Positions 45,001 through 64,000 of a DNA stretch of 64,000 bases are shown one piece after another. This DNA is from Phoronis australis (Eukaryota; Animalia; Phoronida): positions 466,882 to 530,881 of the forward strand of contig NMRA01000279.1 in NCBI GenBank assembly GCA_002633005.1, read 5' to 3'. Within the stretch, counting starts at the first letter, position 1; each line of letters begins with the position of its first letter. The notes below the pieces were generated by a model. That model was not told the DNA's origin and searched no databases. It saw nothing but the letters and a program-made list of their open reading frames with translations. A program made the translations under genes and the position numbers.

Positions 45001-48000
45001 TTGCTTACAGTGACGATGGAAATGAGTATTGGGAAAGATAATAATCTGGCCACTATAGGAATATTAACACTTTAATGCCATGTTTGTTGACTAAGGAAAA
45101 GTAAACGCATTGATAATATTGATATATTGGCAGTATCAAATATCATTCAATCAGTTGTCGAAGCAAACCCTCAAAACGAGTTAGTGACGCATTTAACCAA
45201 GGTTCCGTACAACAGTTTATCGGATCAAAAAGTTGATCACGGGCTGGCCGCCTTATGTTAATTTTTATTATAGCACGTACGTATGACGACTTAGGAACAA
45301 TAGGAAATTGAATTATTATCGATCAACCCTAGTTTGAAGTTTTTTTTATAACAGCTCAATAAATAGTACAGCAACTCACTCATGCAGGTAAGAGCGGCAC
45401 CACTCCATGATTTATCAGCCAGGCAAGTTCGTGAGAGGTTTCCGCCAGATTGTTCATATCCAGTATCGCAAGCGTAGGTGGCGGTGTCACCAAAGAAATC
45501 AGTATCCGATGTAACAGTTGAGTTGGAGTTGATGTCTGGGGAGCCACAACTTACTCCTGAAAGCACGTTGAAGTGAAATGTTCAATGCAGTTTGTTCAGT
45601 GTGGCTATAAATATCCAATGTCAAATGCAAAATTTAAGTACAGTTTCCTTAAAAATGAACTATACAGTCTTTAACAGAACGCCAACAGATTTTACCAAAT
45701 TTGCATAAAATAATCGGCAGTAAAATTGGAGTATAGTCAAATATTTGTCGCTTCTTAAAGATAGTAAACCTTGTTTATATCATTTCAACCAATCCTCAAT
45801 CCGTCACCTGGAAAAATCAAATTCGGCACGTTTATTTTTAAAACTACTATGCATAACGTAACACAGCACAGGTTCGTGCAGTAGCATCGCTAACACATTT
45901 CTGCGAAAAACCTTCTCTAACAGGTACACGCTCGGTTTTAAGCCTAAAAAGCATTTGGGGAATATTACTTGACGAGGTCTAATTCTTCCAGTTGTTAGCT
46001 TTGACCAGCGCTATAAAACAACAAAACCTAAAATGCTTTTATGATTTAAATAGAAATTTCCAATTCTCACCTTTGCATGCCACACAGTAGGTGAAACCAT
46101 GGTCGTGTATTTACCAGTTAAATATTATTGAACTAATCAGCAAATTAATGCGTGTGGTTTACCTGCGCCAACAGAGAGATAGACTTTGACCGGGGAGGAT
46201 TGCAGGTTTGCATTCTCGCTGAAGCTGAACTCATCAAATCAATTTTGTCAAGGATAATTTGCATTTTTTTCTTAAATTCTGTAAAGAAACGTTGTTTGTG
46301 CATTGAGTTCTGCCCTCGAAACTGTTTCTTTTGACAGTCCGTCGATGCTGCGATGACAACTAGGATTGAAACTCAAAAGTAAGAGACATCATTCCACAAA
46401 TCAACAGACAGGCTCCACAGACAACCGAGATTGATGCTTATACCTTTTTATCAAATCAACCGATAACTTTCATAAAGACCCCCCAACACATATACATAGA
46501 CATATACATACTTTGACACTGTAGTGGCGTTGAATCCCAGGATGCGTTTGACAAACATGTCAACAAAGCTTCTCCAGACAACTTCTCGTAGCCAGGTTTG
46601 CACTTGTACGTCACAACAAAGCCATAAATAAAAACTGACCCAGTCCTGACAGCATTTTCATCCTCCGTTATAGGCTCTGAACAATTGATACCTGAATGTG
46701 CAGAGGTGTAATCATGCTGTTAGACAACGCAGTGCGATAGAATACTCAAACCAAACTTACATTTCTCCCAGTTGAGATCTCACTTAAAGCATAGCTTAAG
46801 TTCTTAAGCACATACATGGAGTTGTGGAGTTTGAAACCATTTTTGTGTCTAAGCAACGATGAGTATTGTCGAATGAGTAGTAAGTTATGTTTTAAACTGG
46901 GCACAGGAGCCAGCTCAATAGTATTGGATCTACTCGGCGGCATCTTCCTAAAATACCTACTTAAGTTTGTAGCGTGAAACAAACGTTTTAACTCTGCAAT
47001 TAAGTAAGTTGAAGTAACCAGATTCGTATAATAGTGGACATGATCATTGTTGTGTGATGTAGCCATCATAACCAAGACATATTTCGAGACCCCACTGTGT
47101 ACGAGTAAACAGACTGAGCCAATCTTCGTTTTTAGCCTGCTAACAGGGTGACATTCAGTTTTAAACCAAACCAAAAACAAAAAAAAAAACGCTTATATGC
47201 ACACTCGCATGATGAATTTTACTTAATTATACCTGCAGTGAAGGAGTTTCTAACATCAACCACCACCGCGTTCTCACTTCCGACAATCAATGACCTATTT
47301 GCGGCAATGATGGCATCTACTGCTTGAATGCTGGCTTTAAGCTTTTCAGCGTCAGACAAGTTGCCAACTAATAACAGCTGTTGATCAACAAGCACTGAAC
47401 CAGCCCTGAAAGGTGAATCGGTATTTCAGCAATTAAAACATCATAAAGTTAGTGAGTATGACAGAAAATATCTTCATAAAAACTACACTGCACCCAAGGT
47501 CTTCTTCTGTTCTGAGTACAGTGGATATGGCCAAACCAACTATCCCTATGATTTCCAAAAACCCAGGGACGCAGATCAAGCAGTTTATCAAGACATTGAG
47601 TCCAAATTCAATGTATTCTAATGTTATTGATTTGTGCAAGCTGTTCCGTGTACTTAGAGTTCAAATTCTATATATTGATACAATTTTTACCGATTATAAA
47701 TTTGGGTAATATACTTTACAGGATTAGAACGAGGCTGCGGAACTTTAAAACATACATAACAATCCAAATATAAGATTATAATGTTTATAGATGGATCAGT
47801 ATAGGGTAGAGTAAACACCAGATCCAGAAGTTTTCTTCTCCAAACAGTTGTTCAATAAATTATCGTTTCAAACTTAAATTGACTCACCGTAGCTGTTTAA
47901 TCTTGAGGCTGTTGTAATGTCCAACTCCTTGTCTGTATATTGGGTCGAGCTACAAAATAATCATGAGCATAAACACGACAATATATCGAAAGGAGTGAGT

Positions 48001-51000
48001 CAAAAAAACTATCTTACCTTGATCAATTGAAATAAGTTTCTGCTGCTAACAGAGCGCGCGTTATTTACTAACAAACTCAGCTTAAGCACATGTTCATGAA
48101 CTTATAAATGCTTACACTGAAATGTCCCAGTGACTACAAGCAGCCGACACAGTCTTGAATTATCTAAGTCCGGACGGATTTTAGTTAGTAGTGTGATTGG
48201 AAAACACCATAAATAATTCATACATAAGAAATCAAATAAAAATACTCACTGTGGTATTCAATTCCTTCAAAAACAGCTCCGTGGTTGGGTCTGACAGATT
48301 CTCGTAGTTCGATTTATACGACAACGATAGCTTCATTAGAATGCCGATGTAGGTTGTTGTTCCTGAAGGCGCATGTGTAGCCATGAAATAATGTAAGGAA
48401 CTTCCGGTACAACTTTAGAATGTGCTATTTGTACAATTTACAATAAAATAAACAGGGAAATGAGTCGGTATCACACGTAACAATTGAATTGTATTTGACT
48501 TCTGGGGAACTATACACTAATTCAAAAAGGACAGTGCAGTGAAATAGTCAACCTTCCCATACAGTGGCGATCGAGATATGTAATGTGAAATTGTATACTA
48601 TGGTCTATAAACGCTTTTTAGCACTTTAATTCCCCGGTTGGTGACTAAAAACTAACCACATTTACCATACATTTAGCCAGATCAATTATGATTGAATTAT
48701 TCGTCGAGGAAAAATTTCCGAGCGATTGCTAGGGCATTTCAGTCAGGATATGTTCAACCATGTATTTCTAAAAAAATTAAGACTAAAAATGATAATAGAG
48801 TATTTCTGGGCAAGGCCAATTTCATCTATTTTGCAGGTCTATAAATATTGAAGCAACTCACTCCTGCACATCAGAGCAGACCCACTCCATGTTTGATCGG
48901 CCTGACATGTCCGTGAGAGGTCGCCACCAGATTGTTCATATCCAGCATCACAAGCATAGTTGGCAGTGTCCCCAAAGTCATTTGTATCAGATGTAACGGT
49001 AGAATTTGGGTTAACGTCGGGGGGACCACAACTTACTCCTGAAATAATATTGACATATAGTGGTCAATATTGTGCGAGTGGTGTCGCTGTATATGGAGCC
49101 TCTAAGTTGATCTAATTGAGATTGTGGTCTCAGTCGTGTTTGCGCTCATGCGTTTGCCTAATCAGCTGTTCCCTGTCAGCCGCTTCGTGTCCATTGTGCC
49201 TGGTCTATATGCAGGTTCATATTTTTAGAGTAAGTTGTTGGAATTTCGAGAATGAATATGAAGCAACACTCATCGAAATTAATTGTTTTGATAGTTTTCC
49301 ACATTGAAAACAGTATATAGTGGAAAAGAAATCCGTGTTCTTGCTTAATTTATGTCTAATATTAAGAATGTCAAATTCATTTTGGAACCCAATTATAACA
49401 ATTAAACATTTAATGAGCATATATTTGACACCAAAACGAGCATTAATGAACGAAAAGAATCACACAAACTCCAATTCAATCTGAAAAAGAGCCACATTTT
49501 CAGATCAATTTATCAATGCTCACCCATGGCATTTGATTTCAAGACTTAGTAGACTCACCAATTCGCAGTAGATTGACACCTGTTTGACATTTCGACTGCC
49601 AGTGTTTCTTAAGGACTGTTATGTAATATTTTAGGTTTGCACGAAACCAAAAGCAAATACAAAATAGTACGTACTTGTGCATGACAAAGCAGTTCCAGTC
49701 CAAGCTCCGTCAGACCCACATAGGCGTGTAGTGTTACCACCTGTCGATTCATAGCCGTCGTCACAGGAATAAGTAGCTGCTCCTTGGTAAGTGGTGGATG
49801 TAGTCGTGACGTTGGAATTTGCGTTGGCGGTTGGATGGCCACAATCTTTTACTGGAAATTATGAAAAGAGAAAGAGGCCCATTAACATGTAAGTTCACAC
49901 GTCTCCTTTACAAATGTATTCACGTTCTTATATTGGTCGAATTTCATTACAACTCTCTCGTTATTAATATAGATCATGATGAAGCAAATGGCAGAGCTTA
50001 ATTATGATGCTTTAAGCCATTGCACGCCAACACGCACATGGCAGTTAGTGTCACAATATTGTATGCAAAATCTTAAGCATTGATGTTCATGAAGACTGTC
50101 GATAACTTTAAGGCCCTCGATGGCAGAGGAAAAGAGATATTAGAAATATAACACAAGTTAGGCACAATACAACATTTCAGGAGCAAGATAGAAAAAAAAT
50201 ATAAAAAATGAGAGACCGCTATTGTTTGATTTACCCTGAAATGGGCCTGGTCAATACTTTGTTTCCGTTGTTTGTGCTAGATAATCACTTCCTTCTGAGA
50301 TATCAATCAGTTCTCAGGAAGAAATCGTCATCTAGAACAACGAGATGTCTAAAGCAGTTATTTAACAATGCTGCCGCGGAAAAATCTATCAATTGCAAGC
50401 AGTGTATCAAGAATAAATATCAGTCATTGAGATCCCTCGTTTCGACTGCCAGTTTTTCTTAAGGACTGTTATGTAAAGTTTTAGGTTTGCAAGAAACCAA
50501 AAGCAAATACAAAATAGTACGTACTTGTGCATGACAAAGCAGTTCCAGTCCAAGCTCCGTCAGACCCACATAGGCGTGTAGTGTTACCACCTGTCGATTC
50601 ATAGCCGTTGTCACAGGAATATGTAGCTGTTCCTTGGTAAGTGGTGGATGTAGTCGTGACGTTGGAATTTGCGTTGGCGGTTGGTTGGCCACAATCTTTT
50701 ACTAGAAATTATGAAAAGAGAAAGAGGCACATTAACATGTAAGTTCACACGTCTCCTTTACAAATGTACTCACGTTGTTATATTGGTCGAATTTCATTAC
50801 AACTCTCTCGTTTTTGATATAGATCATGATGAAGCAAATGGTAGAGCTTAATTATGATGCTTTAAATCATTGGAGGCCAACACGCACATGGCAGTTAGTG
50901 TCACAACAGTGTATGCAAAATCTTAAGCATTGATGTTCATGAAGACTGTCGATAACATTAAGGCTCTTGTTGGCACAGGAAAAGAGATATTATGAAAACA

Positions 51001-54000
51001 ACAAATGTTATGCACAATACAACATTTCGGGAGCAAGAAAGAAAAGAAATATCAAAATGAGAGACCGCCATTGTTTGATTTAGGTATAAATGGGCCTTGT
51101 CAATACTTTTTTCCGTTGTGTGTGCTCGATAATCACTTCCTCCTGAGAGATCCATCAGTTGTAAGGCAGAAGTCGTCATCGAGAACAACGAGATGTCTAA
51201 AGCAATTATTCAACAATGCTGTGGCTGAAAAATCTATCAATTCAAAGCAGTGTCTCAAGAAGAAATATCGGTCACTGATATCCCCCGTTTCGACTGCCAG
51301 TTTTCTTAAGGACTGTTATGTAATATTTTAGGTTTGCACGAAACCAAAAGCAAATACAAAATAGTACGTACTTGTGCATGACAAAGCAGTTCCAGTCCAA
51401 GCTCCGTCAGACCCACATAGACGTGTAGTGTTACCACCTGTCGATTCATAGCCGTCGTCACAGGAATAAGTAGCTGTTCCTTGGTAAGTGGTGGATGTAG
51501 TCGTGACGTTGGAATTTGCGTTGGCGGTTGGTTGGCCACAATCTTTTACTGGAAATTATGAAAAGAGAAAGAGGCCCATTAACATGTAAGTTCACACGTC
51601 TCCTTTACAAATGTACTCACGTTCTTATATTAGTCGAATTTCATTACAACTCTCTCGTTATTAATATAGATCATGATGAAGCAAGTGGTAGAGCTTAATT
51701 ATGATGCTTTAAATCATCGGAGGCCAACACGCACATGGCAGTTAGTGTCACAATAGTGTATGCAAAATCTTAAGCATTGATGTTCATGAAGTCTGTCGAT
51801 AACTTTTAAGCTCTCGTTGGCACAGGAAAAGAGATATTATCAATATAACAAAAGTTAGGCACAATACAACATTTCAGGAGGATGAAAGAAAAGAAATAAA
51901 AAAATGAAAGACCGCCATTTTTGACTTACCCAGAAATGGGCCTGGTCAATACTTTGTTTCCGTTGTTTGTGCTCGGTAATCAATTCTTTCTGAGAGATCA
52001 ATCAGTTGTAAGGCAGAAGTCGTCATCGAGAACAACGAGATGTCTAAAGCAATTATTCAACAATGCTGCGGCGGAAAAATCTATCAATTGCAAGCAGTGT
52101 CTAAAGACGAAATATCGGTCATTGAGATCCCCCGATTCGACTGTCAGTTTTTCTTAAGGACTGTTTTGTAATATTTTAGGTTTCCACGAAACCAAAAGCA
52201 AATACAAAATAGTACGTACTTGTACATGACAAAGCAGTTCCAGTCCAAGCTCCGTCAGACCCACATAGGCGTGTAGTGTTACCACCTGTCGATTCATAGC
52301 CGTCGTCACAGGAATAAGTAGCTGTTCCTTGGTAAGTGGTGGATGTAGTCGTGACGTTGGAATTTGCGTTGGCGGTTGGTTGGCCACAATTTTTTACTGG
52401 AAATTATGAAAAGAGAAAGAGGCACATTAACATGTAAGTTCACACGTCTCCTTTACAAATATACTCACTTTCTTATATTTTTCGAATTTCATTACAACTC
52501 TCTCGTTATTAATGTAGATCATGATGAAGCAAATGGTAGAGCTTAATTATGATGCTTTAAGTCATTGGAGGCCAACACGCACATGGCAGTTAGTGTCACA
52601 ATAGTGTATGCAAAATCTTATGCATTGATGTTCATGAAGACTGTCGATAAGTTTAAGGCTCTCGTTGGCACAGGAAAAGAGATATTATAATTATAACAAA
52701 AGTTAGGTACAATACAACATTTAAGGAGCAAGAAACAAAAGAAATATAAAAAATGAGAGACTGACATTGTTTGATCTAGCCAGAAATGGGCCTGGTCAAT
52801 ATTTGTTTCCGTTGTTTGTGCTCGATAACCACTTCCATCTGAGAGATCAATCAGTTGTAAGGCAGAAGTCGTCATCGAGAACAACGAGATGTCTAAAGCA
52901 ATTATTCAACATTGCTGCGGCGGAAAATTCTATCAATTGCAAGCAGTGTTTAAAGAAGAAATATCGGTCATTGAGATCCCCCGTTTCGACTGCCAGTTTT
53001 TCTCAATGACTGTTATGTAATATTTTAGGTTTGCACAAAAGCAAAGCAAATACTAAATAGTACGTACTTGTGCATGACAAAGCAGTTCCAGTCCAAGCTC
53101 CGTCAGACCCACATAGGCGTGTAGTGTTACCACCTGTCGATTCATAGCCGTCGTCACAGGAATAAGTAGCTGTTCCTTGGTAAGTGGTGGATGTAGTCGT
53201 GACGTTGGAATTTGCGTTGGCGGTTGGTTGGCCACAATCTTTTACTGAAAATTATGAAAAGAGAAAGAGGCACATTAACATAAAAGTTCACACGTCTCCT
53301 TTACAAATGTACTCACGTTCTTATATTAGTCGAATTTCGTTACAACTCCCTCGTTATGAATATAGATCATGATGAAGCAACTGGTAGAGCTTAATTACGA
53401 TGGTTTAAGTCATTGGAGGCCAACACGCCCATGGCAGTTAGTGTCACGATTGAGTATGCAAAATCTAAAGCATTGATGTTCATGAACACTTTCGATAACT
53501 TTAAGGCTCTCGTTGGCACAGGAAAAGAGATATTATAAATATAACAAATATTAGGCACAATACAACATTTCAGGAGCAAGAAAGAAAAGAACTATAAAAA
53601 ATGAGAGACTGCCACTGTTTGATTTAGCCAGAAATGGGCCTGATCAATACTTTGTTTCCGTTGCTTGTGTTCGATAACCACTTCGTTCTGAGAGATCAAA
53701 CAGTTGTAAGGCAGAAGTCGTCATCGAGAACAACGAGATGTCTAAAGCAATTATTCAACAATGCTGCGGCCGAAAAATGTATCAATTGCGAGCAGTGTCT
53801 CAAGAAGAAATATCGGTCATTGAGATCCCCCGTATCGACTGCCAGTTTTTCTTAAGGACTGTTATGTAATATTTTAGGTTTGCACGAAACCAAAAGCAAA
53901 TACAAAATAGTACGTACATGTGCATGACAAAGCAGTTCCAGTCCAAGCTCCGTCAGACCCACATAGGCGTGTAGTGTTACCACCTGTCGATTCATAGCCG

Positions 54001-57000
54001 TCGTCACAGGAATAAGTAGCTGTTCCTTGGTAAGTGATGGATGTAGTCGTGACGCTGGAATTTGCGTTGGCGGTTGGTTGGCCACAATCTTTTACTGGAA
54101 ATTATGAAAAGAGAAAGAGGCACATTAACATGTAAGTTCACACGTTTCCTTTACAAATGTACTCACTTTCTTATATTGGTCGAATTTCATTACAACTCTC
54201 TCGTTATTAATGTAGATCATGATGAAGCAAATGGTAGAGCTTAATTATGATGCTTTAAGTCATTGGAGGCCAACACGCACATGGCAGTTAGTGTCACAAT
54301 AGTGTATGCAAAATCTTATGCATTGATGTTCATGAAGACTGTCGATAAGTTTAAGGCTCTCGTAGCCACAGGAAAAGAGATATGATAGTTATAACAAAAG
54401 TTAGGTACAATACAACATTTAAGGAGCAAGAAAGAAAAGAAATATAAAAAGTGAGAGACTGACATTGTTTGATTTAGCCAGAAATGGGCCTGGTCAATAC
54501 TTTGTTTCCGTTGTTTGTGCTCGATAACCACTTCCATCTGAGAGATCAATCAGTGGAAGGCAGAAGTCGTCATCGAGAACAACGAGATGTCTAAAGCAAT
54601 TATTCAGCAATGTTGCGGCGGAAACTTCTATCAATTGCAAGCAGTGTCTAAAGAAGAAATATCGGTCATTGAGATCCCCCGTTTCGACTGCCAGTTTTTC
54701 TCAATGACTGTTATGTAATATTTTAGGTTTGCACAAAAGCAAAGCAAATACTAAATAGTACGTACTTGTGCATGACAAAGCAGTTCCAGTCCAAGCTCCG
54801 TCAGACCCACATAGGCGTGTAGTGTTACCACCTGTCGATTCATAGCCGTCGTCACAGGAATAAGTAGCTGTTCCTTGGTAAGTGGTGGATGTAGTCGTGA
54901 CGTTGGAATTTGCGTTGGCGGTTGGTTGGCCACAATCTTTTACTGGAAATTATGAAAAGAGAAAGAGGCACATTAACATGTAAGTTCACACGTCTCCTTT
55001 ACAAATGTACTCACGTTCTTATATTGGTCGAATTTCATTACAACTCTCTCGCTATTAATATAGATCATGATGAAGCAAATGGTAGAGCTTAATTATGATG
55101 TTGTAAGTCATTGGAGGCCAACACGCACATGGCAGTTAGTGTCAAAATAGTGTATGCAAAATCTTATGCATTGATGTCCATGAAGACTGTCGATAACTTT
55201 AAGGCTCTCGTTGGCACAGGAAAAGAGATATTATAAATATAACAAAAGTTAGGCACAATACAACATCTCAGGATCAAGAAAGGATAGAAATATAAAAAAT
55301 GAGAGACTGACATTGTTTGATTTAGCCAGAAATGGGCCTGGTCAATACCTTGTTTCCGCTGTTTGTGCTCGATAATCACTTGATTCTGAGAGATTAATCA
55401 GTTGTAAGGCAGAAGTCGTCATCGAGAACAACGAGATGTCTCAAGCAATTATTCAACAATGCTTCGGCGGAAAAATCTTTCAATTGCAAGCAGTGTCTAA
55501 AGAAGAAATATCGGTCATTGAGATCCCCCGTTTCGACTGCCAGGTTTTCTTAAGGCGTGGTATGTAATATTTTAGGTTTGCACGAAACAAAAGCAAATAC
55601 AAAAGAGTACGTACTTGTGCATGACAAAGCAGTTCCAGTCCAAGCTCCGTCAGACCCACATAGGCGTGTAGTGTTACCACCTGTCGATTTATAGCCGACG
55701 TCACAGGAATAAGTAGCTGTTCCTTGGTAAGTGGTGGATGTAGTCGTGACGTTGGAATTTGCGTTGGCGGTTGGTTGGCCACAATCTTTTACTGAAAATT
55801 ATGAAAACAGAAAGAGGCACATTAACATAAAAGTTCACACGTCTCCTTTACAAATGTACTCACGTTCTTATATTAGTCGAATTTCATTACAACTCTCTCG
55901 TTATGAATATAGATCATGATGAAGCAACTGGTAGAGCTTAATTATGATGGTTTAAGTCATTGGAGGCCAACACCCCATGGCAGTTAGTGTCACGATTGAG
56001 TATGCAAAATCTAAAGCATTGATGTTCATGAACACTTTCGATAACTTTAAGGCTCTCGTTGGCACAGGAAAAGAGATATTATAAATATAACAAATATTAG
56101 GCACAATACAACATTTCAGGAGCAAGAAAGAAAAGAAATATAAAAAATGAGAGACTGACATTGTTTGATCTAGCCAGAAATGGGCCTGGTCAATACTTTG
56201 TTTCCGTTGTTTGTACTCGATAACCACTTCCATCTGAGAGATCAAACAGTTGTAAGGCAGAAGTCGTCATCGAGAACAACGAGATGTCTAAAGCAATTAT
56301 TCAACAATGCTGCGGCGGAAAATTCTATCAATTGCAAGCAGTGTCTAAAGAAGAAATATCGGTCATTGAGATCCCCGTTTCGACTGCCAGTTTTTCTCAA
56401 TGACTGTTATGTAATATTTTAGGTTTGCACAAAAGCAAAGCAAATACTAAATAGTACGTACGTGTGCATGACAAAGCAGTTCCAGTCCAAGCTCCGTCAG
56501 ACCCACATAGGCGTGTAGTGTTACCACCTGTCGATTCATAGCCGTCGTCACAGGAATAAGTAGCTGTTCCTTGGTAAGTGGTGGATGTAGTCGTGACGTT
56601 GGAATTTGAGTTGGCGGTTGGTTGGCCACAATCTTTTACTGGGAATTATGAAAAGAGAAAGAGGCACATTAACATGTAAGTTCACACGTCTCGTTTACAA
56701 ATGTACTCACTTTCTTATATTCGTCGAATTTCATTACAACTCTCTCGTTATTAATGTAGATCATGATGAAGCAAATGGTAGAGCTTAATTATGCTGCTTT
56801 AAGTCATTGGAGGCCAACACGCACATGGCAGTTAGTGTCACAATAGTGTATGCAAAATCTTATGCATTGATGTTCATGAAGACTGTAGATAAGTTTAAGG
56901 CTCTCGTTGGCACAGGAAAAGGGATATTATAATTATAACAAAAGTTAGGTACAATAAAACATTTAAGGAGCAAGAAAGAAAAGAAATGTAAAAAATGAGA

Positions 57001-60000
57001 GACTGACATTGTTTGATTTAGCCAGAAATGGGCCTGGTCAATACTTTGTTTCCGTTGTTTGTGTTCGATAACCTCTTCCTTCTGAGAGATCAATCAGTTT
57101 TAAGGCAGAAGTCGTCATCGAGAACAACGAGATGTCTAAAGCAATTATTCAACAATGCTGCGGCGGAAAACTATCAATTGGAAGCAGTGTCTCAAGACGA
57201 AATATCGGTCATTGAGATCCCCCGTTTCGACTGCCAGTTTTTCTCAATGACTACATGTAGGTTTGCACGAAACCAAAGGAAAATACAAAATAATACGTAC
57301 TTGTGCATGACAAAGCAGTTCCAGTCCAAGCTCCGTCAGATTCACATAGGCGTGTAGTGTTACCACCTGTCGATTCATAGCCGTCGTCACATGAATAAGT
57401 AGCTGTTCCTTGGTAAGTGGTGGATGTAGTCGTGACGTTGGAATTTGCGTTGGCGGTTGGTTGGCCACAATTTATTACTGGAAATTATGAAAAGAGAAAG
57501 AGGCACATTAACATATAAGTTCACAAGTCTCCTTTACAAATGTACTCACTTTCTTATATTGGTCGAATTTCATTACAACTCTCTCGTTATTAATCTAGAT
57601 CATGATGAAGCAAATGGTAGATCTTAATTATGATCCTTTAAGTCATTGGAGACCAACACGCACATGGCAGTTAGTGTCACAATAGTGTATGCAAAATCTT
57701 ATGCATTGATGTCATGAAGACTTTCGATAAGTTTAAGGCTCTCGTTGGAACAGGAAAAGAGATATTATAAATATAACAAAAGTTAGGTACAATACAACAT
57801 TAAAGGAGCCAGAAAGAAAAGAAATATAAAAAATGAGAGACTGACATTGTTTGATTTAGCCAGAAATGGGCCTGGTCAATACTTTGTTTCCGTTGTTTGT
57901 GCTCGATAACCACATCCTTCTGAGAGATCTATCAGCTGTAAGGCAGGAGTCGTCATCGAGAACAACGAGATGTCTAAAGCAATTATTCAACAATGCTGCT
58001 ACGGAAAAATCTATCAATTGCAAGCAGCGTCTAAAGAAGAAATATCGGTCATTGAGATCAACCGTTTCGACTGCCAGTTTTTCTTAAGGACTGTTATGTA
58101 ATATTTTAGGTTTGCACGAAACTAAAAGCAAATACAAAATAGTACGTACTTGTGCATGACAAAGCAGTTCCAGTCCAAGCTCCGTCAGACGCACATAGGC
58201 GTGTAGTGTTACCACCTGTCGATTCATAGCCGTCGTCACATGAATAAGTAGCTGTTCCTTGGTAAGTGGTGGATGTAGTCGTGACGTTGGAATTTGCGTT
58301 GACGGTTGGTTGGCCACAATCTTTTACTGGAAATTATGAAAAGAGAAAGAGGCACATTAACATGTATGTTCACACGTCTCCTTTACAAATGTACTCACGT
58401 TCTTATATTGGTCGAATTTCATTACAACTCTCTCGTTATTAATATAGATCATGATGAAGCAACTGGTAAAGCTTAATTATGATGGTTTAAGTCATTGGAG
58501 GCCAACACGCACATGGCAGTTAGTGTCACATTAGAGTATGCAAAATCTTAAGCATTGATGTTCATGAAGACTGTGGATAACTTCAAGGCTCTTGTTGGCA
58601 CAGGAAAAGAGATATTATAAATATAACAAATGTTAGGCACAATACAACATTTCAGGAAGAAGAAAGAAAAGAAATACAAGAGCAACGCAGAGCGTTGAAA
58701 TGCGCCCACCATTGCACCGCATACGGTATCCTTCTAGGGTTGGTTATTAGTACCATAAAGTGGCCAGTAGAGGGCATATATGTAGTATGTTGAACTTTGC
58801 AAAATGGAAAGGCATGGTCCATGTCTCCTCAATAGGCTAGGGGCAAAATGTGAGTAATCTTGACAATACAAGCACATCCTATACACCCGCTGCTTAAAGC
58901 ACCACAGAAACATAGAATTAAAAACAAATTTACCAACATACGAGATTAGCACAGCATTAGAATGCCAGAAACAAATTTCTACTTGGAACTTTCCCTTCAT
59001 AGTCATGAAGTAACACAAAGTACACACCTGAAGAAAATACAGAGGTTAATGTAAAATACTAAAATTGCCACTAGAGGAATACCGGTAGTCAGAATCATCC
59101 TAAAGTCGTCATCGTCCGTTGTCAACATCACATAAATACACTTGCTAAATTTAGTAATAATGCGTCCACATATAAATATGTGGGCGCACAATAAAGATCC
59201 TGCAAACAGTTTGGGAGATACAGCCATGGACGCAAAAAAACAAAACTACCACTAGGAGGCGCCACAGTAGTCCAAATCATCTGAAAATCATTGTCAGCTC
59301 TCTTCCTTATAGTAAGCACATACACGCCAATTTTCACAATCATCTTTTGAGCGGTTTGGTTGATAGAGGGATGGACGCAAAAATACAGACTCGAAAACAC
59401 TAAAAATGGCCACTAGGTGGCGCAAACTATGTTAAATCCATCTGAAAACAGGAGGATAGCGTCATCTTACTAATAGGTGCCTACATACCAAATTTCATGA
59501 AAATCCGTTAAGGACTTTTGAAGATACAAAGGTAAGCGTAAAAAACTAAAATTGCCACCAGCGGGCACACCGGTAGTCGAATCCGTCCAAAAGTCGTCAT
59601 CTTCCGTTGTTAACATCATATATATATACTTACACAATTTCGTAAAGATCCTGCGAACGGTTTAGGAGATACAGCCATAGGCGCAAAAAATAAAACTGCC
59701 ACTAGGAGGTTCCACAGTAGTCGAAATCGTCGGAAAATCATCGTCAACCGTCCTCTACATAGTAAGCATATACATGCCAATTTTCACAATCATCTTTTGA
59801 GCGGTTTGGTTGATAGAGGGGTGGACGCACAAAAACAGACTCGAAAACACTAAAATTGGCCACTAGGTGGCGCAAACTATGTCGAATCCATCTGAAAATG
59901 GGAGGATAGCGTTATCTCACTAACAGGTGCCTACATACCAAATTTCATGAAAATCCAATAAGGACTTGTAAAGATACAAAGGTAAGCGTAAAAAAACTAA

Positions 60001-63000
60001 AATTGCGACTAGGGGGCACACCGGTAGTCGAATCCGTCCAAAAGTCGTGATCTTCCGTTGTTAACATCATATAAATATACTTACAAAATTTCGTAAAGAT
60101 CCTGCGAACGGTTTAGGAGATACAGCCATAGGCGCTAAAAAAACAAAACTGCCACTAGGAGGTTCCACAGTAGTCGAAATCGTCGGAAAATCATCGTCAA
60201 CCGTCCTCTACATAGTAAGCATATACATGCCAATTTTCACAATCATCCTTTGAGCGGTTTGGTTGATAGAGGGGTGGACGCAAAAATACAGACTCGAAAA
60301 CAGTAAAAATGGCCACTAGGTGGCGCAAACTATGTCGAATCCATCTGAAAACGGGAGGATAGCGTCATCTCACTAATAGGTGCCTACATACCAAATTTCA
60401 TGAAAATCCATTCAGGACTTTTGAAGATACAAAGGTAAGCGTAAAAAACTAAAATTGCCACTAGGGGGCACACCGGTAGTCGGATCCGTCCAAAAGTCGT
60501 CATCTTCCGTTGTTAACATCATATAAATATACTTACACAATTTCGTAAAGATCCTGCGAACGGTTTAGGAGATACAGCCATAGGCGCAAAAAAAAAAAAA
60601 CTGCCACTAGGAGGCGCCACAGTAGTCGAAATCGTCGGAAAATCATCGTCAACCGTCCTCTACATAGTAAGCATATACATGCCAATTTTCACAATCATCC
60701 TTTGAGCGGTTTGGTTGATAGAGGGGTGGACGCACAAAAACAGACTCGAAAACACTAAAAATGGCCACTAGGTGGCGCAAACTATGTCGAATCCATCTGA
60801 AAACGGGAGGATAGCGTCATCTCACTAATAGGTGCCTACATACCAAATTTCATGAAAATCCGGACTTTTGAAGATACAAAGGTAAGCGTAAAAAAATAAA
60901 ATTGCCACTAGGGGGCACACCGGTAGACAGATCCGTCCGAAAGTTCGCACATGCCGTCCCATTCATGATTGGAACATATGCCAAATTTCCTGAACGTATG
61001 TCAAAGGGTTTGGAGATAGAGCAGCGGACGCCGGACGCCGGACGCCGGACGCTGCCCGGACGGACGGACGGACGGACGGACGGACGGACGGACGGACGGA
61101 CGGACAGAGATGACGGCATAATGCGTCCACATATAAATATGTGGACGCATAATAAAAAATGAGAGACCGCCATTGTTTGACTTACCCAGAAATGGGCCTG
61201 GTCAATACTTTGTTTCCGTTGTTTGTGCTCGATAATCACTTCTTTCCGAGAGATCAATCAGTTGTAAGGCAGAAGTCGTCATCGAGAACAACGAGATGTC
61301 TAAAGCAATTATTCAACAATGCTGCGACGGAAAAATCTATCAATTGCAAGCAGTGTCTAAAGAAGAAATATCGGTCATTGAGATCCCCCGTTTCGACTGC
61401 CAGTTTTTCTTAAGGACTGTTATGTAATATTTTAGATTTGCACGAAACCAAAACCAAATACAAAATAGTACGTACTTGTGCATGACAAAGCAGTTCCAGT
61501 CCAAGCTCCGTCAGACCCACATAGGCGTGTAGTGTTACCACCTGTCGATTCATAGCCGTCGTCACAGGAATAAGTAGCTGTTCCTTGGTAAGTGGTGGAT
61601 GTAGTGGTGACGTTGGAATTTGCGTTGGCGGTTGGTTGGCCACAATCTTTTACTGGAAATTATAAAAAGAGAAAGAGGCACATTAACATGTAAGTTCACA
61701 AGTCTCCTTTACAAATGTACTCACTTTCTTATATTGGTCGAATTTCATTACAACTCTCTCGTTATTAATGTAGATCATGATGAAGCAAATGGTAGAGCTT
61801 AATTATGATTCTTTAAGTCATTGGAGACCAACACGCACATGGCAGTTAGTGTCACAGTAGTGTATGCAAAATCTTATGCATTGATGTTCATGAAGACTGT
61901 CGATAAGTTTAAGGCTCTCGTTGGCACAGAAAAAGAGATATTATAAATATAACAAAAGTTAGGCACAATACAACATTAAAGGAGCCGGAAAGAAAAGAAA
62001 TATAAAAAATGAGAGACGGACATTGTTTGATTTAGCCAGAAATGGGATGGTCAATTCTTTGTTTCCGTTGTTTGTGTTCAATCACCACTTCCTTTTGAGA
62101 GATCAATCAGTTGTAAGGCAGAAGTCGTCATTGAGAACAACGAGATGTCTAAAGGAATTATTCAACAATACTGCGGTGGAAAAAATCGACTGCCAGTTTT
62201 TCTTAAGGACTGTTATGTAATATTTTAGGTTTGCACGAAACCAAAAGCAAATACAAAATAGTACGTACTTGTGCATGACAAAGCAGTTCCAGTCCAAGCT
62301 CCGTCAGACCCACATAGGCGTGTAGTGTTACCACCTGTCGATTCATAGCCGTCGTCACAGGAATAAGTAGCTGTTCCTTGGTAAGTGGTGGATGTAGTCG
62401 TGACGTTGGAATTTGCGTTGGCGGTTGGTTGGCCACAATCTTGTACTGGAAATTATGAAAAGAGAAAGAGGCACAGTAACATGAACATGCAAGTTCACAC
62501 GTTTCCTTTACAAATGTACTAACGTTCTTATATTGGTCGAATTCCATTACAACTGTCTCGTTATTAATATAGATCATGATGAAGCAAATGGTAGAGCTTA
62601 ATTATGATGCTTTAAATCATCGGAGGCCAACACGCACATGGCACTTAGTGTCACAATAGTGTATGAAAAATCTTAAGCATTGATGTTCATGAAGTCTGTC
62701 GATAACTTTAAGGCTCTCGTTGGCACAGGAAAAGAGGTATTATAAATATAAGAAAAGTTAGGCACAATACAACATTTCAGGAGGTAGAAAGAAAAGAAAT
62801 ATAAAAAATGAGAGACCGCCATTGTTTGACTTACCCAGAAATGGGCCTGGTCAATACTTTGTTTCCGTTGTTTGTGCTCGATAATCACTTCTTTCCGAGA
62901 GATCAATCAGTTGTATGGCAGAAGTCGTCATCGAGAACAACGAGATGTCTAAAGCAATTAGTCAACAATGCTGCGCCGTAAAACTCTATCAATTGGAAGC

Positions 63001-64000
63001 AGTGTCTCAAGACGAAATATCGGTCATTGAGATCCCCCGTTTCGACTGCCAGTTTTTTTCAATGACTGTTATGTAATATTTTAGGTTTGCACGAAAGCAA
63101 AGCAAATACTAAATAGTACGTACTTGTACATGATAAAGCAGTTCCAGTCCAAGCTCCGTCAGACCCACATAGGCGTGTAGTGTTACCACCTGTCGATTTA
63201 TAGCCGTCGTCACAGGAATAAGTAGCTGTTCCTTGGTAAGTGGTGGATGTAGTGGTGACGTTGGAATTTGCGTTGGCGGTTGGTTGGCCACAATCTTTTA
63301 CTGGAAATTATGAAAAGAGAAAGAGGCACATTAACATGTAAATTCACACGTCTCCTTTAGAAATGTACTCACGTTCTTATATTAGTCGAATTTCATTAGA
63401 ACTCTCTCGTTATTAATATAGATCATGATGAAGCAAATGGTAGAGCTTAATTATGATGCTTTAAGTCATTGGAGGCCAACACGCACATGGCAGTTAAAAT
63501 GACAATTGAATATGCAAAATCTTAAGCATTGATGTTCATGAAGACTGTCGATAACTTTAAGGCTCTCGTTGGCACAGGAAAAGAGATATTATAAATATAA
63601 CAAATGTTAGGCACAATACAACATTTCAGGAGCAAGAAAGAAAAGAAATATAAAAAATGAGAGACTGCCATTGTTTGATTTAGCCAGAAATGGGCTTGGT
63701 CAATACTTAGTTTCCGTTGTTTGTGTTCAATCACCACTTCCTTTTGAGAGATCAATCAGTTGTAAGGCAGAAGTCGTCATTGAGAACAACGAGATGTCTA
63801 AAGGAATTATTCAACAATGCTGGGGTGGAAAAATCTATCAATTGCAAGCAGTTTCTCAAGAAGAATTATCGGGCATTGAGATCCCCCGTTACGACTGCAA
63901 GTTTTTCTTAAGGACTGTTATGTGATATTTTAGGTTTGCACGAAACCAAAAGCAAATACAAAATAGTACGTACTTGTGCATGACAAAGCAGTTCCAGTCC
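2735..64000 (-). CDS. Giant multi-exon type I transmembrane mucin-like protein (Sushi/CCP repeats, 2 SEA, NIDO-AMOP-VWD, many EGF/cbEGF, Thr-rich repeat, TM); MUC4/SUSD2/Mesh-like; 5'-partial
   Basis: 62 exons found by hand, each with GT donor and AG acceptor on the minus strand, compatible intron phases and an open spliced frame ending in TAA at 2735-2737. Summed CDS about 12,300 nt. Domains recognised from Cys spacing and motifs. Start codon and signal peptide lie outside the window. Confidence 0.92.
3271..4380 (-). mobile_element. Non-autonomous Helentron (HINE; DINE-1/pearl-like), copy 1, about 2 internal ~450-bp repeats
   Basis: Read on the minus strand: T-rich start, hairpin ATGCGCCCACATA-TTTA-TATGTGGACGCAT, (GTCC)n microsatellite, tandem repeats, 3' subterminal IR, stem-loop AACGCTCTGCGTT, end CTTGT. 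Homologous to 43708-44553 and 58676-61151. Confidence 0.82.
6421..6597 (-). CDS. Exon: end of juxtamembrane EGF, transmembrane helix and basic stop-transfer segment
   Basis: Acceptor ttttttacag, donor gtaagt. Translation [12 protein letters not shown]...[38 protein letters not shown]. Confidence 0.92.
7158..7233 (-). CDS. Exon: first half of juxtamembrane EGF domain
   Basis: [25 protein letters not shown]; phase 1-2, splices in frame to the TM exon. Confidence 0.9.
9397..10308 (-). CDS. Membrane-proximal SEA domain, three exons: 10199-10308, 9902-9963, 9397-9551
   Basis: [36 protein letters not shown]|[21 protein letters not shown]|[14 protein letters not shown]...; contains the SEA GSVV motif; phases 1-0, 0-2, 2-1. 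Confidence 0.88.
12458..14660 (-). CDS. 2,203-nt exon: 8 tandem EGF/calcium-binding EGF domains followed by the Thr/Ser/Glu/Gln-rich mucin repeat
   Basis: Lies inside ORF 12411..14807. Acceptor ttacag at 14661-14663, donor gtaagt at 12452-12457. Repeated D(I/V)DEC...[24 protein letters not shown] motif. Confidence 0.95.
12519..13670 (-). repeat. Coding minisatellite, 32 x 36 bp (12-aa unit, consensus [10 protein letters not shown](P/L)A), mucin-type O-glycosylation stalk
   Basis: Units counted in the translation. The sequence at 12781-12960 is identical to 13141-13320 (360-bp offset). Confidence 0.95.
15199..15612. mobile_element. TTAA-flanked MITE (Kolobok-like), copy A
   Basis: TTAA on both sides, imperfect TIRs containing GTCTCATTAAA. 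It is the reverse-complement homologue of 19174-19603. Confidence 0.7.
15717..22980 (-). CDS. EGF/cbEGF exons: 22816-22980, 21031-21159, 20107-20235, 19699-19824, 18690-18818, 16877-17131, 15717-15970
   Basis: Examples: [97 protein letters not shown]. Canonical splice sites, mostly phase 1-1. Confidence 0.92.
16035..16103. mobile_element. Tiny MITE remnant (CAGGGGCGGATC...ATCCGCCACT ends)
   Basis: GC-rich 69-bp island with imperfect inverted ends. A similar right end (ATCCGCCACTG) occurs near 34125-34135. Confidence 0.45.
19174..19603. mobile_element. TTAA-flanked MITE (Kolobok-like), copy B
   Basis: TTAA-AGACGCTATGTCCCATTAAA ... TTTAATGAGACATAGCGTCT-TTAA: 19/20-bp TIR with a TTAA target duplication and AG...CT ends. 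Confidence 0.8.
21405..22319. other. Direct duplication (463 bp and 451 bp) on either side of a single N at 21868; probable uncollapsed haplotype overlap
   Basis: 21405-21867 repeats as 21869-22319 with a few SNPs and a 12-bp indel. The junction is exactly the N. Confidence 0.85.
23102..23174. mobile_element. Tiny GC-rich MITE with 13-bp TIR
   Basis: CATGGGCGGCGCA ... TGCGCCGCCCATG, a perfect inverted pair. Related copies in the opposite orientation at 33562-33697. Confidence 0.6.
23432..23953 (-). CDS. Ig/cadherin-like beta-sandwich plus degenerate EGF, exons 23734-23953 and 23432-23607
   Basis: [37 protein letters not shown]...VQWTPS...[10 protein letters not shown]...CLCSTGWEG; phases 1-2, 2-1. 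The fold assignment is by resemblance only. Confidence 0.75.
24195..27784 (-). CDS. VWD domain and following Cys-containing segment, exons 27560-27784, 26611-26724, 25200-25394, 24195-24431
   Basis: [27 protein letters not shown]...FQLQGRT..., [17 protein letters not shown]...[21 protein letters not shown]. These match MUC4/SUSD2-type VWD hallmarks. Confidence 0.92.
29166..29822 (-). CDS. AMOP domain, exons 29578-29822 and 29166-29388
   Basis: GKWVHRLD...KCLTWA...DCPP...|[11 protein letters not shown]...[10 protein letters not shown]...CELFHERRP. The CCYD, P..WCC and F..RRP motifs are typical of AMOP. Confidence 0.88.
30171..30270. repeat. Degenerate 16-bp minisatellite (about 6 copies, GTTCACT.CTCCT.AA-like)
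   Basis: gttcactgctcctaaa gttcacttctcctgaa gttcactactctgaat gtttactagtccaaat gtccactactgcgcag gtttacttctctgaat. Confidence 0.6.
30341..30841. mobile_element. Degraded foldback/MITE with long imperfect TIRs built from ~21-bp subrepeats
   Basis: The left arm (AATGTGCTTAATAAACGCGTAGTTTTACTTAATCAACGCG) is mirrored on the right (CGCGTTGATTAAGTAAAACTAG...GATTAAGCACATT). Confidence 0.55.
31582..34356 (-). CDS. NIDO domain, exons 34217-34356, 32617-32922, 31582-31801
   Basis: [16 protein letters not shown] and [19 protein letters not shown] motifs typical of NIDO; phases 1-0, 0-0, 0-1. Confidence 0.9.
33562..33697. mobile_element. Two adjacent copies of the same tiny GC-rich MITE family as 23102-23174
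   Basis: Both contain TAGCCCC(C)AC.TTTTTCA.TGCTGCGCCGCC.ATG. Confidence 0.55.
34579..34698 (-). CDS. cbEGF exon between the Sushi block and NIDO
   Basis: [40 protein letters not shown]; 120 nt, phase 1-1. Confidence 0.92.
35245..46691 (-). CDS. Fourteen diverged Sushi/CCP exons: 35245-35421, 35763-35939, 36237-36413, 37244-37420, 37689-37865, 38734-38910, 39025-39201, 39673-39849, 40229-40405, 41968-42144, 42795-42971, 44791-44967, 45380-45556, 46512-46691
   Basis: Each is 177 nt (one is 180 nt), phase 1-1, with the CCP pattern C..P....N...........A.Y.C..GY...GG...R.C...G.W.G....C. Confidence 0.92.
36855..37099. mobile_element. Probable MITE
   Basis: TGCTCACACCCAG / CTAGGTGCGAGCA (11/13 inverted match), with G-runs near both ends. 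Confidence 0.4.
39365..39580. mobile_element. Small TIR element with a central perfect 60-bp palindrome
   Basis: TIR CAATTGACCTATCGC / GCGATAGGTCAACTG (14/15). Palindrome at 39432-39491. Confidence 0.6.
43708..44553 (-). mobile_element. HINE copy 2 (more degraded; 3' stem-loop region deleted)
   Basis: Same terminal hairpin (about 44521-44548), (GGAC)n tract and internal repeat unit as copy 1. Confidence 0.8.
47233..48362 (-). CDS. Second (N-terminal) SEA domain embedded among the Sushi exons, exons 48250-48362, 47888-47949, 47233-47405
   Basis: [37 protein letters not shown]|[21 protein letters not shown]|[12 protein letters not shown]...; GSVL motif. Same three-exon, phase 1-0/0-2/2-1 layout as the SEA at 9397-10308. 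Confidence 0.85.
48862..49038 (-). CDS. Sushi/CCP exon, paralogous to 44791-44967 and 45380-45556
   Basis: [59 protein letters not shown]; 177 nt, phase 1-1. Confidence 0.92.
49675..64000 (-). CDS. Fifteen near-identical Sushi exons: 49675-49851, 50525-50701, 51372-51548, 52220-52396, 53068-53244, 53918-54094, 54766-54942, 55615-55791, 56462-56638, 57301-57477, 58150-58326, 61476-61652, 62269-62445, 63124-63300, 63974->64000 (partial)
   Basis: Consensus [59 protein letters not shown]. All complete copies are 177 nt, phase 1-1, with AG acceptor and GTACGT donor retained. Confidence 0.9.
58676..61151 (-). mobile_element. HINE copy 3, 2,476 bp, about 4 full tandem ~450-bp repeats, inserted into one intron of the Sushi array
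   Basis: Neighbouring array units give the empty site (gaaat^ataaaaaatgagagac); no target-site duplication. Subterminal IR ATGCGCCCAC near 58700, stem-loop CAACGCAGAGCGTTG, long (GGAC)n near 61057-61106, terminal hairpin about 61121-61150. Confidence 0.88.

What the first reader, a model, noticed from the sequence alone, without database searches (positions are those of the whole stretch)
49590..64000. Exon-bearing satellite: >=15 near-identical 850-bp units, each adding one Sushi domain
Seen: the whole exon+intron unit is tandemly amplified. All 14 complete exons are 177 nt, phase 1-1 and open, and differ by only a few codons. The introns carry more substitutions and all the indels (unit lengths 793-855). 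Inference: the ectodomain length works like an accordion through unequal crossing-over, a VNTR whose unit is a spliced folded domain rather than an intra-exonic peptide repeat. The absence of indels or stops in the exons suggests purifying selection on every copy.
Basis: partly seen in the sequence, partly recalled or inferred. Interest (0 to 1): 0.8.

Follow-up and report, generated by a model that had tools for sequence, protein, structure and literature searches.

The report
Sushi-exon array spliced on both strands
A mucin-4-like surface-protein gene of an invertebrate holds a tandem array of near-identical exon-plus-intron units, each adding one Sushi domain to the spliced message (a design known from human LPA and DMBT1), and the same units are also read and spliced one by one on the opposite strand into an abundant non-coding RNA that is likely a by-product of the amplification but could tune the protein's length.

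Summary
The array is real: 14 complete 177-nt phase 1-1 Sushi exons plus a cut 15th, in a MUC4-like gene on the minus strand. RNA from two samples joins Sushi exon to Sushi exon 12-25 times as often as single-copy exons, and DNA word depth points to about 30-45 units, so it is no assembly expansion. Exons differ 2.2%, introns 7.4%; synonymous sites are depleted too and introns are mosaics, so homogenisation by recombination or conversion acts together with purifying selection on the fold. Absence of indels and stops alone proves little. This design is known (LPA KIV-2, DMBT1, CR1, SmPoMuc), and near-identical Sushi runs occur in 22 of 150 related proteins. Unexpected: an antisense RNA at about 60% of sense depth is spliced unit to unit at canonical sites (152- or 254-nt non-coding exons over each Sushi exon). 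Its splice sites are as strong as chance sites, so function is unproven. Copy-number variation was not tested. The scan's index held no look-alike.

The parts
49590..64000 (-). Tandem array of ~850-bp exon+intron units, at least 15, running off the window
49675..49851 (-). Sushi exon E01 (177 nt, phase 1-1), the array's last exon in gene order; spliced to exon 48250-48362 in RNA
50525..50701 (-). Sushi exon E02
51372..51548 (-). Sushi exon E03
52220..52396 (-). Sushi exon E04
53068..53244 (-). Sushi exon E05 (identical to E07, the majority type)
53918..54094 (-). Sushi exon E06 (N13S moves the glycosylation sequon from 13 to 11)
54766..54942 (-). Sushi exon E07 (reference for read laying)
55615..55791 (-). 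Sushi exon E08
56462..56638 (-). Sushi exon E09
57301..57477 (-). Sushi exon E10 (most divergent)
58150..58326 (-). Sushi exon E11
58677..61152 (-). HINE-like non-autonomous element inserted in intron 11: terminal hairpin, GTCC microsatellite, 3.9 copies of a 452-bp repeat, palindrome at the other end, no clear target-site duplication
   Evidence: features as in PMC7492417
61476..61652 (-). Sushi exon E12
62269..62445 (-). Sushi exon E13
63124..63300 (-). Sushi exon E14
63974..64000 (-). 3' end of Sushi exon E15, cut by the window
49635..49786 (+). Antisense exon, short form (152 nt; AG before it, GT donor inside the Sushi exon); the same exon is present in every unit; stops in all three frames
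49635..49888 (+). Antisense exon, long form (254 nt), covering the whole Sushi exon and both of its splice sites; donor GT kept in 10 of 14 units
42795..42971 (-). Older copy of the array exon (158 of 177 nt identical), flanked by a strongly diverged but homologous intron
41968..42144 (-). Older copy, mosaic: 10 differences from the array in the first 54 nt, 2 in the last 123 nt
35245..49038 (-). 13 further, diverged Sushi exons (12 of 177 nt, one of 180 nt, phase 1-1) and three exons of an SEA-like domain (47234-48362; SEA by eye only)
   Evidence: no Pfam hit for the SEA-like exons
6420..34698 (-). Rest of the host gene: EGF, NIDO, AMOP (weak), VWD, C8-3_MUC4, calcium-binding EGF array, 36-bp Thr-rich mucin repeat, SEA-like (by eye), EGF-like, hydrophobic transmembrane stretch

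Best explanation
The array is the repeated outer part of a mucin-4-like membrane protein gene: each 850-bp unit adds one Sushi domain to the spliced mRNA, the units were likely multiplied by unequal crossing-over and are likely kept alike by exon-centred gene conversion plus selection on the fold, and an antisense RNA is spliced from unit to unit, likely because chance splice sites of the founder unit were amplified with it. Shown: exon anatomy, tandem splicing on the sense strand, canonical unit-to-unit splicing on the antisense strand, mosaic introns, low exon diversity that includes synonymous sites, sparing of core residues. Inferred: symmetrical phase 1-1 exons let any number of units be gained or lost in frame, giving a long glycosylated rod (two N-glycosylation sequons in 14 of 14 repeats) that would hold the N-terminus far from the membrane; new private changes are nearly neutral because one domain in about 40 matters little, while changes that spread between copies are filtered; conversion tracts succeed where identity is highest, the exon, and reach copies 7 kb away. 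The antisense RNA is taken as co-transcribed and without a shown function.
For: Sense joints Sushi-to-Sushi 76 (X5) and 86 (X6) against 3-10 for single-copy joints: ratio 19 and 12-25; depth ratio 20 and 15. DNA word depth 1725 on the majority exon against a median of 52 on eight single-copy contigs: 33 copies raw, 39-44 corrected. Synonymous variants 7 against 18.2 expected at intron rates (p=0.003); shared amino-acid variants 2 against 14.2 (p=8e-5) while shared synonymous are 3 against 4.5; core hits 0 of 14 (p=0.006); 9 of the 17 best-supported exon variants in RNA are synonymous (expected share 0.24, p=0.01). Incompatibility rises with distance; diversity rises with distance from the exon (rho 0.11, p=0.006). 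Copy 41968 is a mosaic (max-chi p=0.001) while its introns are near the aligner's noise. Antisense joints 28 (X5) and 30 (X6), all on the opposite mate strand, at GT..AG; acceptors that strong occur 0.7 per kb and donors 0.1-1.3 per kb in non-array plus-strand DNA, and the long-form donor is lost or changed in 4 of 14 units.
Against: Overall N/S is 0.73 (p=0.32), private variants are neutral (4 synonymous, 14 not), so selection per copy is weak. Conversion is inferred from one haplotype; a lower mutation rate in exons or splicing-enhancer constraint could also deplete synonymous variants. The antisense RNA is abundant (about 60% of sense depth over the exon in 2 of 3 RNA runs), keeps its acceptor AG in 15 of 15 units and its inner donor in 14 of 14, and is absent where the sense RNA is absent (X7), which fits a function as well. 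No copy-number alleles were seen; the DNA run may be the assembly's own sample, and the tool warns that contig depth is no copy number. No orthologue of the whole gene was found.
Confidence: 0.68

Rival explanations
1. Same array, but the antisense RNA is a working part: a chain of exons complementary to every Sushi exon and its splice sites pairs with the pre-mRNA (or acts through chromatin or small RNAs) and sets how many units are spliced in, tuning ectodomain length within one genotype.
For: High level, sharp exon borders, two alternative donors used in different shares in X5 and X6, many units used (14 of 17 exon variants are seen on both strands, rho 0.64); the 254-nt form covers both sense splice sites; RNA suggests 12-25 included exons against 33-44 units in DNA, though in other samples; the neighbouring exon 48862-49038 is skipped. 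Precedent: TTN-AS1 changes titin exon use (PMC12054628, abstract).
Against: Splice sites no stronger than chance sites, long-form donor lost or changed in 4 of 14 units, 3 of 15 acceptors weak; skipping inside the array cannot be seen with short reads; no strand-specific A-to-G change among the 40 rows shown (48 not shown); in titin the effect did not depend on exon overlap.
Confidence: 0.17
2. One reading: plain recent tandem expansion; exons are more alike than introns only because protein-level purifying selection acts on each copy.
For: Core residues spared, shared variants mostly synonymous, no indel in exons (p=0.012 at the raw intron rate).
Against: Synonymous sites are depleted 2.6-fold and private variants show no N/S deficit; the copy at 41968 shares 121 of its last 123 nt with the array while its introns have decayed.
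Confidence: 0.08
3. Exon identity is kept by RNA-templated repair: cDNA of the mRNA, or the antisense RNA, converts exons but not introns.
For: Identity of the 41968 copy ends at the exon's donor; both strands give abundant exon-only RNA.
Against: Diversity rises gradually into the intron (0.25, 0.35, 0.34, 0.47 variants per column by distance); no intron loss in 14 of 14 introns, which cDNA recombination would be expected to cause (general knowledge); DNA conversion with selection explains the same pattern in KRTAP1 (10.1101/282418).
Confidence: 0.04
4. The exons are alternatives (Dscam-type, one or few chosen), or the joints are single-exon circles, or the array is an assembly expansion.
For: A short-read joint from exon end to exon start looks the same for a circle and for neighbouring copies.
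Against: Depth and joint ratios of 12-25; at least one antisense junction read carries private letters from both ends of intron 3, which fits linear splicing between neighbours and not a circle; window-private variants G45E and N13S occur in RNA of other samples; DNA depth exceeds the assembled count.
Confidence: 0.03

Closest known systems
Human LPA KIV-2 VNTR (PMC11201333, passages)
   Same: Intragenic tandem unit of exon(s) plus intron(s) coding one disulphide-bonded folded domain; up to 40 near-identical units per allele.
   Different: KIV-2 is 5.6 kb with two exons per kringle in a secreted protein and proven copy-number alleles; here 0.85 kb, one exon, Sushi domain, membrane mucin, alleles untested, and an antisense exon per unit.
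Intragenic exon arrays DMBT1, NBPF, CR1, DAZ (PMC2588610, Table 2B passages)
   Same: Repeat wholly inside a gene, each unit one or more domain exons; CR1 is a Sushi-domain protein and matches the repeat by sequence (PDB 2q7z, E 3.6e-12).
   Different: CR1's unit is 18.6 kb with 3 copies; DMBT1 2.9 kb, 13 copies, over 79% alike. No unit-wise antisense splicing in the passages read.
Schistosoma mansoni SmPoMuc genes (PMC2576457, passages)
   Same: Invertebrate mucin whose 5' part is up to 20 tandem ~1-kb exon+intron units, over 93% alike, under concerted evolution.
   Different: Exon is 27 bp (a peptide, not a fold); there the introns are more homogenised than the exons, the reverse of this array; 'antisense' occurs 0 times in that text.
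Mammalian KRTAP1 repeats (10.1101/282418, abstract and results part 2)
   Same: Coding sequence homogenised, flanks diverging; explained by short-tract conversion plus selection.
   Different: Separate single-exon genes, not exons of one gene.
MUC4 and coral mucin4-like proteins (PMC4890752, passages)
   Same: NIDO, AMOP, VWD, EGF core; corals add repeated TSP1 domains at the N-terminus.
   Different: Here at least 30 Sushi domains take that place, and the Thr-rich repeat lies near the membrane.
TTN-AS1 (PMC12054628, abstract) and protocadherin-alpha antisense lncRNAs (10.1101/360206, abstract and passages)
   Same: Antisense non-coding RNA across an array of related domain exons.
   Different: Both have shown functions (exon skipping via RBM20; promoter choice) and neither is described, in what I read, as one repeated antisense exon per genomic unit.

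Membership tests
Intragenic domain-coding tandem array (LPA/DMBT1/NBPF type) | Head-to-tail units of exon plus intron inside one gene | tested here: met
Intragenic domain-coding tandem array (LPA/DMBT1/NBPF type) | Each unit codes a whole folded domain in frame | tested here: met
   177 nt, phase 1-1, PF00084 above cut-off
Intragenic domain-coding tandem array (LPA/DMBT1/NBPF type) | Units are spliced in series into mRNA | tested here: met
   76 and 86 exon-to-exon joints; ratios 12-25 to single-copy joints; short reads only
Intragenic domain-coding tandem array (LPA/DMBT1/NBPF type) | Unit number varies between alleles (VNTR) | not testable with these tools
   all four DNA runs are one sample; RNA ratios are not comparable with DNA depth
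Concerted evolution by conversion or unequal exchange | Mosaic units; homogenised synonymous sites | tested here: met
   one haplotype only
MUC4-like NIDO-AMOP-VWD proteins | NIDO, VWD, C8-3 and EGF domains in order | tested here: met
   PF06119 E 8e-11, PF00094 E 3e-5, PF23263 E 8e-12, EGF families
MUC4-like NIDO-AMOP-VWD proteins | AMOP domain | tested here: inconclusive
   PF03782 E 0.03, 14.9 bits, under the cut-off of 25, on one exon; none on the other
MUC4-like NIDO-AMOP-VWD proteins | All exons on one transcript ending in a transmembrane segment | not tested
SEA domain | Profile match | tested here: inconclusive
   no Pfam hit on 4 of 4 single exons, no relevant PDB hit; name rests on a recalled motif
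cis natural antisense lncRNA | Opposite strand, overlapping, spliced, non-coding | tested here: met
   stops in 3 of 3 frames; no Rfam match beyond one at E 0.75
cis natural antisense lncRNA | Same locus and a regulatory effect on the sense gene | not testable with these tools
   shared variants point to the same copies; start site, end and effect unknown
HINE (non-autonomous Helentron) | Terminal inverted repeat, microsatellite, central tandem repeats, 3' palindrome, no target-site duplication | tested here: met
   against PMC7492417; subterminal repeat match judged by eye; no autonomous partner sought
Dscam-type mutually exclusive exon cluster | One exon of the cluster per mRNA | tested here: not met
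   exon-to-exon joints outnumber exit joints 76 to 5 and 86 to 4

The most novel reading that the evidence does not exclude
An 850-bp unit that is an exon cassette on both strands: amplifying it lengthens a surface protein by one Sushi domain and, at the same stroke, lengthens a mirror non-coding RNA by one complementary exon. The mirror RNA masks the splice sites of the array and so sets the rod's length per tissue, or guides the homogenisation that keeps the exons alike: a self-scaling sense-antisense repeat.
Probability: 0.18. Interest if true: 0.8.

Novelty: new variant of a known kind. Interest (0 to 1): 0.47.

Why it matters
The array itself adds a compact, fully expressed invertebrate case to a known class, with a clean record of how such genes grow: fresh units, a two-unit relic with decayed introns but converted exons, and 13 old diverged exons of the same size and phase. 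It lets conversion and selection be told apart within one gene. The antisense RNA is the part a specialist would not expect: every unit yields a spliced exon on each strand, at similar levels. Even as a by-product it shows how tandem amplification makes a long, multi-exon antisense RNA from chance splice sites; if it controls exon inclusion it would be a way to tune the length of a surface protein that I did not find described.

Tried and rejected
No whole genome is held, so the far end of the array was not seen. Word-based protein searches with the Sushi exon and the C8-3 exon found no relative (weak evidence by the tool's own note). The profile-free search gave only poly-Sushi proteins of 29-49% identity, none of the 12 scanned with NIDO or VWD. 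No RNA holder was listed by the index; the RNA runs came by species label. X7 gave no reads on the array and 2 joint reads on single-copy exons: too few to claim a short isoform. An acceptor-like site 42 nt beside the older copy 42795 was considered as an old antisense acceptor and dropped: such sites occur 1 per kb, and a letter shared by the two older copies is absent from antisense reads (0 of 86 against 16 of 250 sense, p=0.015). A-to-I editing: no strand-specific change inside the exon among the 40 rows shown. Sequencing error as the source of private variants: rejected, since they are three times rarer in exons and two recur in RNA. A clean higher-order repeat: not found; nearest partners change along the intron. 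Rfam: nothing. Two junction changes (I to L) were left out of the core-residue test, which used 14 of 16 amino-acid changes. The RNA variant test used the 17 exon rows with counts shown, of a table that hid 48 rows and is biased to common variants; without the 4 rows that older copies could explain it is 7 of 13 (p=0.02). No structure or complex was predicted. No supplements were read.

Full report
Observation. BLAST of the first exon finds 14 complete copies at 96-100% between 49.7 and 63.3 kb, a cut 15th, and two more at 42-43 kb. All 14 are 177 nt on the minus strand, AG..GT, phase 1-1 and open; 2 of 2 tested score as Sushi. Mean pairwise difference is 2.2% in exons and 7.4% in introns; the introns hold 230 variants in 595 gap-free columns and 17 distinct gap runs, the exons 23 variants and no gap. 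One intron carries a 2,476-bp insertion, 58677-61152, with a terminal hairpin, a GTCC microsatellite, 3.9 copies of 452 bp and a palindrome at the far end, with relatives at 3.3-4.4 and 43.7-44.6 kb; this is the anatomy of a HINE (PMC7492417, passages).

Host gene. Downstream on the minus strand lie 15 more Sushi exons (14 of 177 nt, one of 180 nt, phase 1-1), an SEA-like trio of exons (by eye; no profile hit), then EGF, NIDO, a weak AMOP, VWD, C8-3_MUC4, calcium-binding EGF repeats, a 36-bp Thr-rich repeat and a hydrophobic stretch followed by basic residues. That is the MUC4-like core (PMC4890752, passages) with at least 30 Sushi domains in front. That all these exons form one transcript is inferred; reads were laid only on 44.6-50.4 kb and on one unit. 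Each array repeat keeps two N-glycosylation sequons (14 of 14; the one N13S change creates a new sequon at 11).

Is it real and expressed? In two of three stranded RNA runs the exon-end to exon-start joint has 76 and 86 reads, all on the sense-reading mate strand, against 3-10 for single-copy joints: ratios 19 and 12-25, depth ratios 20 and 15. So mRNAs carry many units in series; the exons are not alternatives. In short-read DNA contigs the majority exon has word depth 1725 against a median of 52 on eight single-copy contigs, that is 33 copies, or 39-44 after allowing for words broken by private variants. The tool warns that such depth is no copy number and that this run may be the assembly's own sample; still, it points to more units than the window shows, not fewer. 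Copy-number alleles could not be tested: the four DNA runs are one sample.

What keeps the exons alike. Of 23 exon variants 7 are synonymous and 16 not. At the introns' base-specific rates 18.2 and 56.6 are expected, so both classes are short (p=0.003, 2e-10) and their ratio is 0.73 (p=0.32). Private variants are neutral in ratio (4 and 14 against 13.7 and 42.4); shared ones are filtered (3 against 4.5 synonymous, 2 against 14.2 amino-acid, p=8e-5). None of 14 amino-acid changes tested hits the 17 columns conserved in 11 older Sushi exons (31% of the opportunity, p=0.006). Absence of stops (P=0.38) and of indels (P=0.18 scaled, 0.012 unscaled) adds little (all). In RNA, 9 of the 17 best-supported exon variants are synonymous (p=0.01). 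Introns are mosaics: among 48 informative sites incompatibility climbs from 0.07 under 50 bp to 0.53 over 300 bp (0 of 1000 permutations), and diversity rises away from the exon. The two copies at 42-43 kb are a relic of the same unit: the 650-bp intron between them is homologous to the array intron (z=13.5) but only about 63% alike in aligned columns, close to the aligner's noise of 59-65%, while the exons are 89% and 93% identical; copy 41968 has 10 differences in its first 54 nt and 2 in the last 123 (max-chi p=0.001). The simplest reading is DNA conversion that succeeds in exons, with selection on the fold, as argued for KRTAP1 (10.1101/282418, abstract and results part 2).

The antisense RNA. 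The same two runs have reads of the opposite strand over the unit: depth 71 and 79 against 111 and 129 sense at 54800-54810, rising at the acceptor 39-40 nt left of the Sushi exon and falling at two points. Joints number 28 and 30, all on the opposite mate strand, and fall on plus-strand GT..AG: one donor inside the Sushi exon (152-nt exon; 16 and 19 reads), one 37 nt into the next intron (254-nt exon; 12 and 11 reads). All three frames are closed and Rfam has nothing. 14 of 17 exon variants occur on both strands with correlated shares (rho 0.64, p=0.006), so many units are used. One loose-end consensus (6 reads, median 10 letters, so perhaps a single read spans it) joins private letters found together only at the two ends of intron 3, which fits linear splicing between neighbours in the window's order, not a circle. 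A matrix from 24 real sites of this gene ranks the used acceptor first and the used donors first and third among plus-strand sites of a unit, but sites as strong occur 0.7 per kb (acceptor) and 0.1-1.3 per kb (donors) outside the array; the acceptor AG is kept in 15 of 15 units, the inner donor in 14 of 14, the outer GT in 10 of 14. So no selection is needed to explain the sites. Start, end and effect of the RNA are unknown; no single-copy antisense exon was clear left of the array.

Comparison. Arrays inside genes whose unit is a domain exon are a listed class: NBPF, CR1, LPA, DMBT1, DAZ (PMC2588610, passages); LPA KIV-2 reaches 40 units (PMC11201333, passages); SmPoMuc has up to 20 one-kb exon+intron units, with introns the more homogenised part (PMC2576457, passages). 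Runs of near-identical Sushi domains are common: 22 of the 150 best hits have 5 or more repeats at 90% identity and 7 have 10 or more, among them coral, shark and bivalve proteins; their gene structure was not examined. Antisense RNAs over domain-exon arrays are known for titin (PMC12054628, abstract) and protocadherin alpha (10.1101/360206, abstract and passages). I found no paper on an antisense RNA spliced once per unit of an exon-intron array (searches; the library lacks most subscription journals). The scan's index had no note near this place and no look-alike sequence; one note on a fungal spliced non-coding exon-intron repeat is a related idea (unchecked).

Verdict. The antisense splicing makes it a new variant. 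Interest 0.47; the functional two-strand reading has probability about 0.18 and would deserve 0.8.

Noticed in passing
window 45380-45556 and 44791-44967: DNA contigs of depth 1455 (7 differences shown) and a bin depth of 613 lie on these single Sushi exons against about 52 for single-copy DNA: a second amplified Sushi-exon family of roughly 28 copies probably lies outside the window; RNA depth there is only 2-3, so it is not included at high copy in these samples. RNA reads share 4 of the 7 differences.
   Followed up: partly
window 48862-49038: Intact Sushi exon that is skipped in 5 and 4 joint reads (array exon E01 joined straight to 48250-48362) and has low depth of its own.
   Followed up: no
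window 46512 to an array-type exon: 4 reads in X6 (2 starts) join the donor of exon 46512-46691 to an array-type exon with 9 extra letters of its acceptor side; not canonical, unexplained.
   Followed up: no
window 12414-14822: One long exon holds both a 123-bp calcium-binding EGF repeat (about 6 copies, 83% alike) and a 36-bp Thr-rich repeat (31 copies): the same gene also grows by repeats inside an exon.
   Followed up: no
window 3272-4380 and 43720-44553: Relatives (72-84% alike) of the HINE-like element of intron 11; a second copy of its terminal hairpin sits inside the insertion at 59154-59191.
   Followed up: partly
window 21404-22320: Direct duplication of about 452 bp (95% alike) around the window's single N at 21868: probably an unmerged scaffold overlap, unrelated to the 452-bp repeat of the insertion.
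   Followed up: no
array introns, alignment columns 480-520 (about 160-200 nt left of each exon): A 40-nt intron patch with low diversity (0.035 against 0.085-0.13 beside it), also recognisable beside the older copy 42795; upstream of the antisense acceptor, a candidate regulatory element.
   Followed up: no
window 45990-46026: Short element with very high DNA depth and unstranded RNA reads with many different flanks: a high-copy dispersed repeat.
   Followed up: no
protein P0001: Best hit: 42 Sushi stretches behind a VERL_C (egg-envelope lysin receptor) domain.
   Followed up: no
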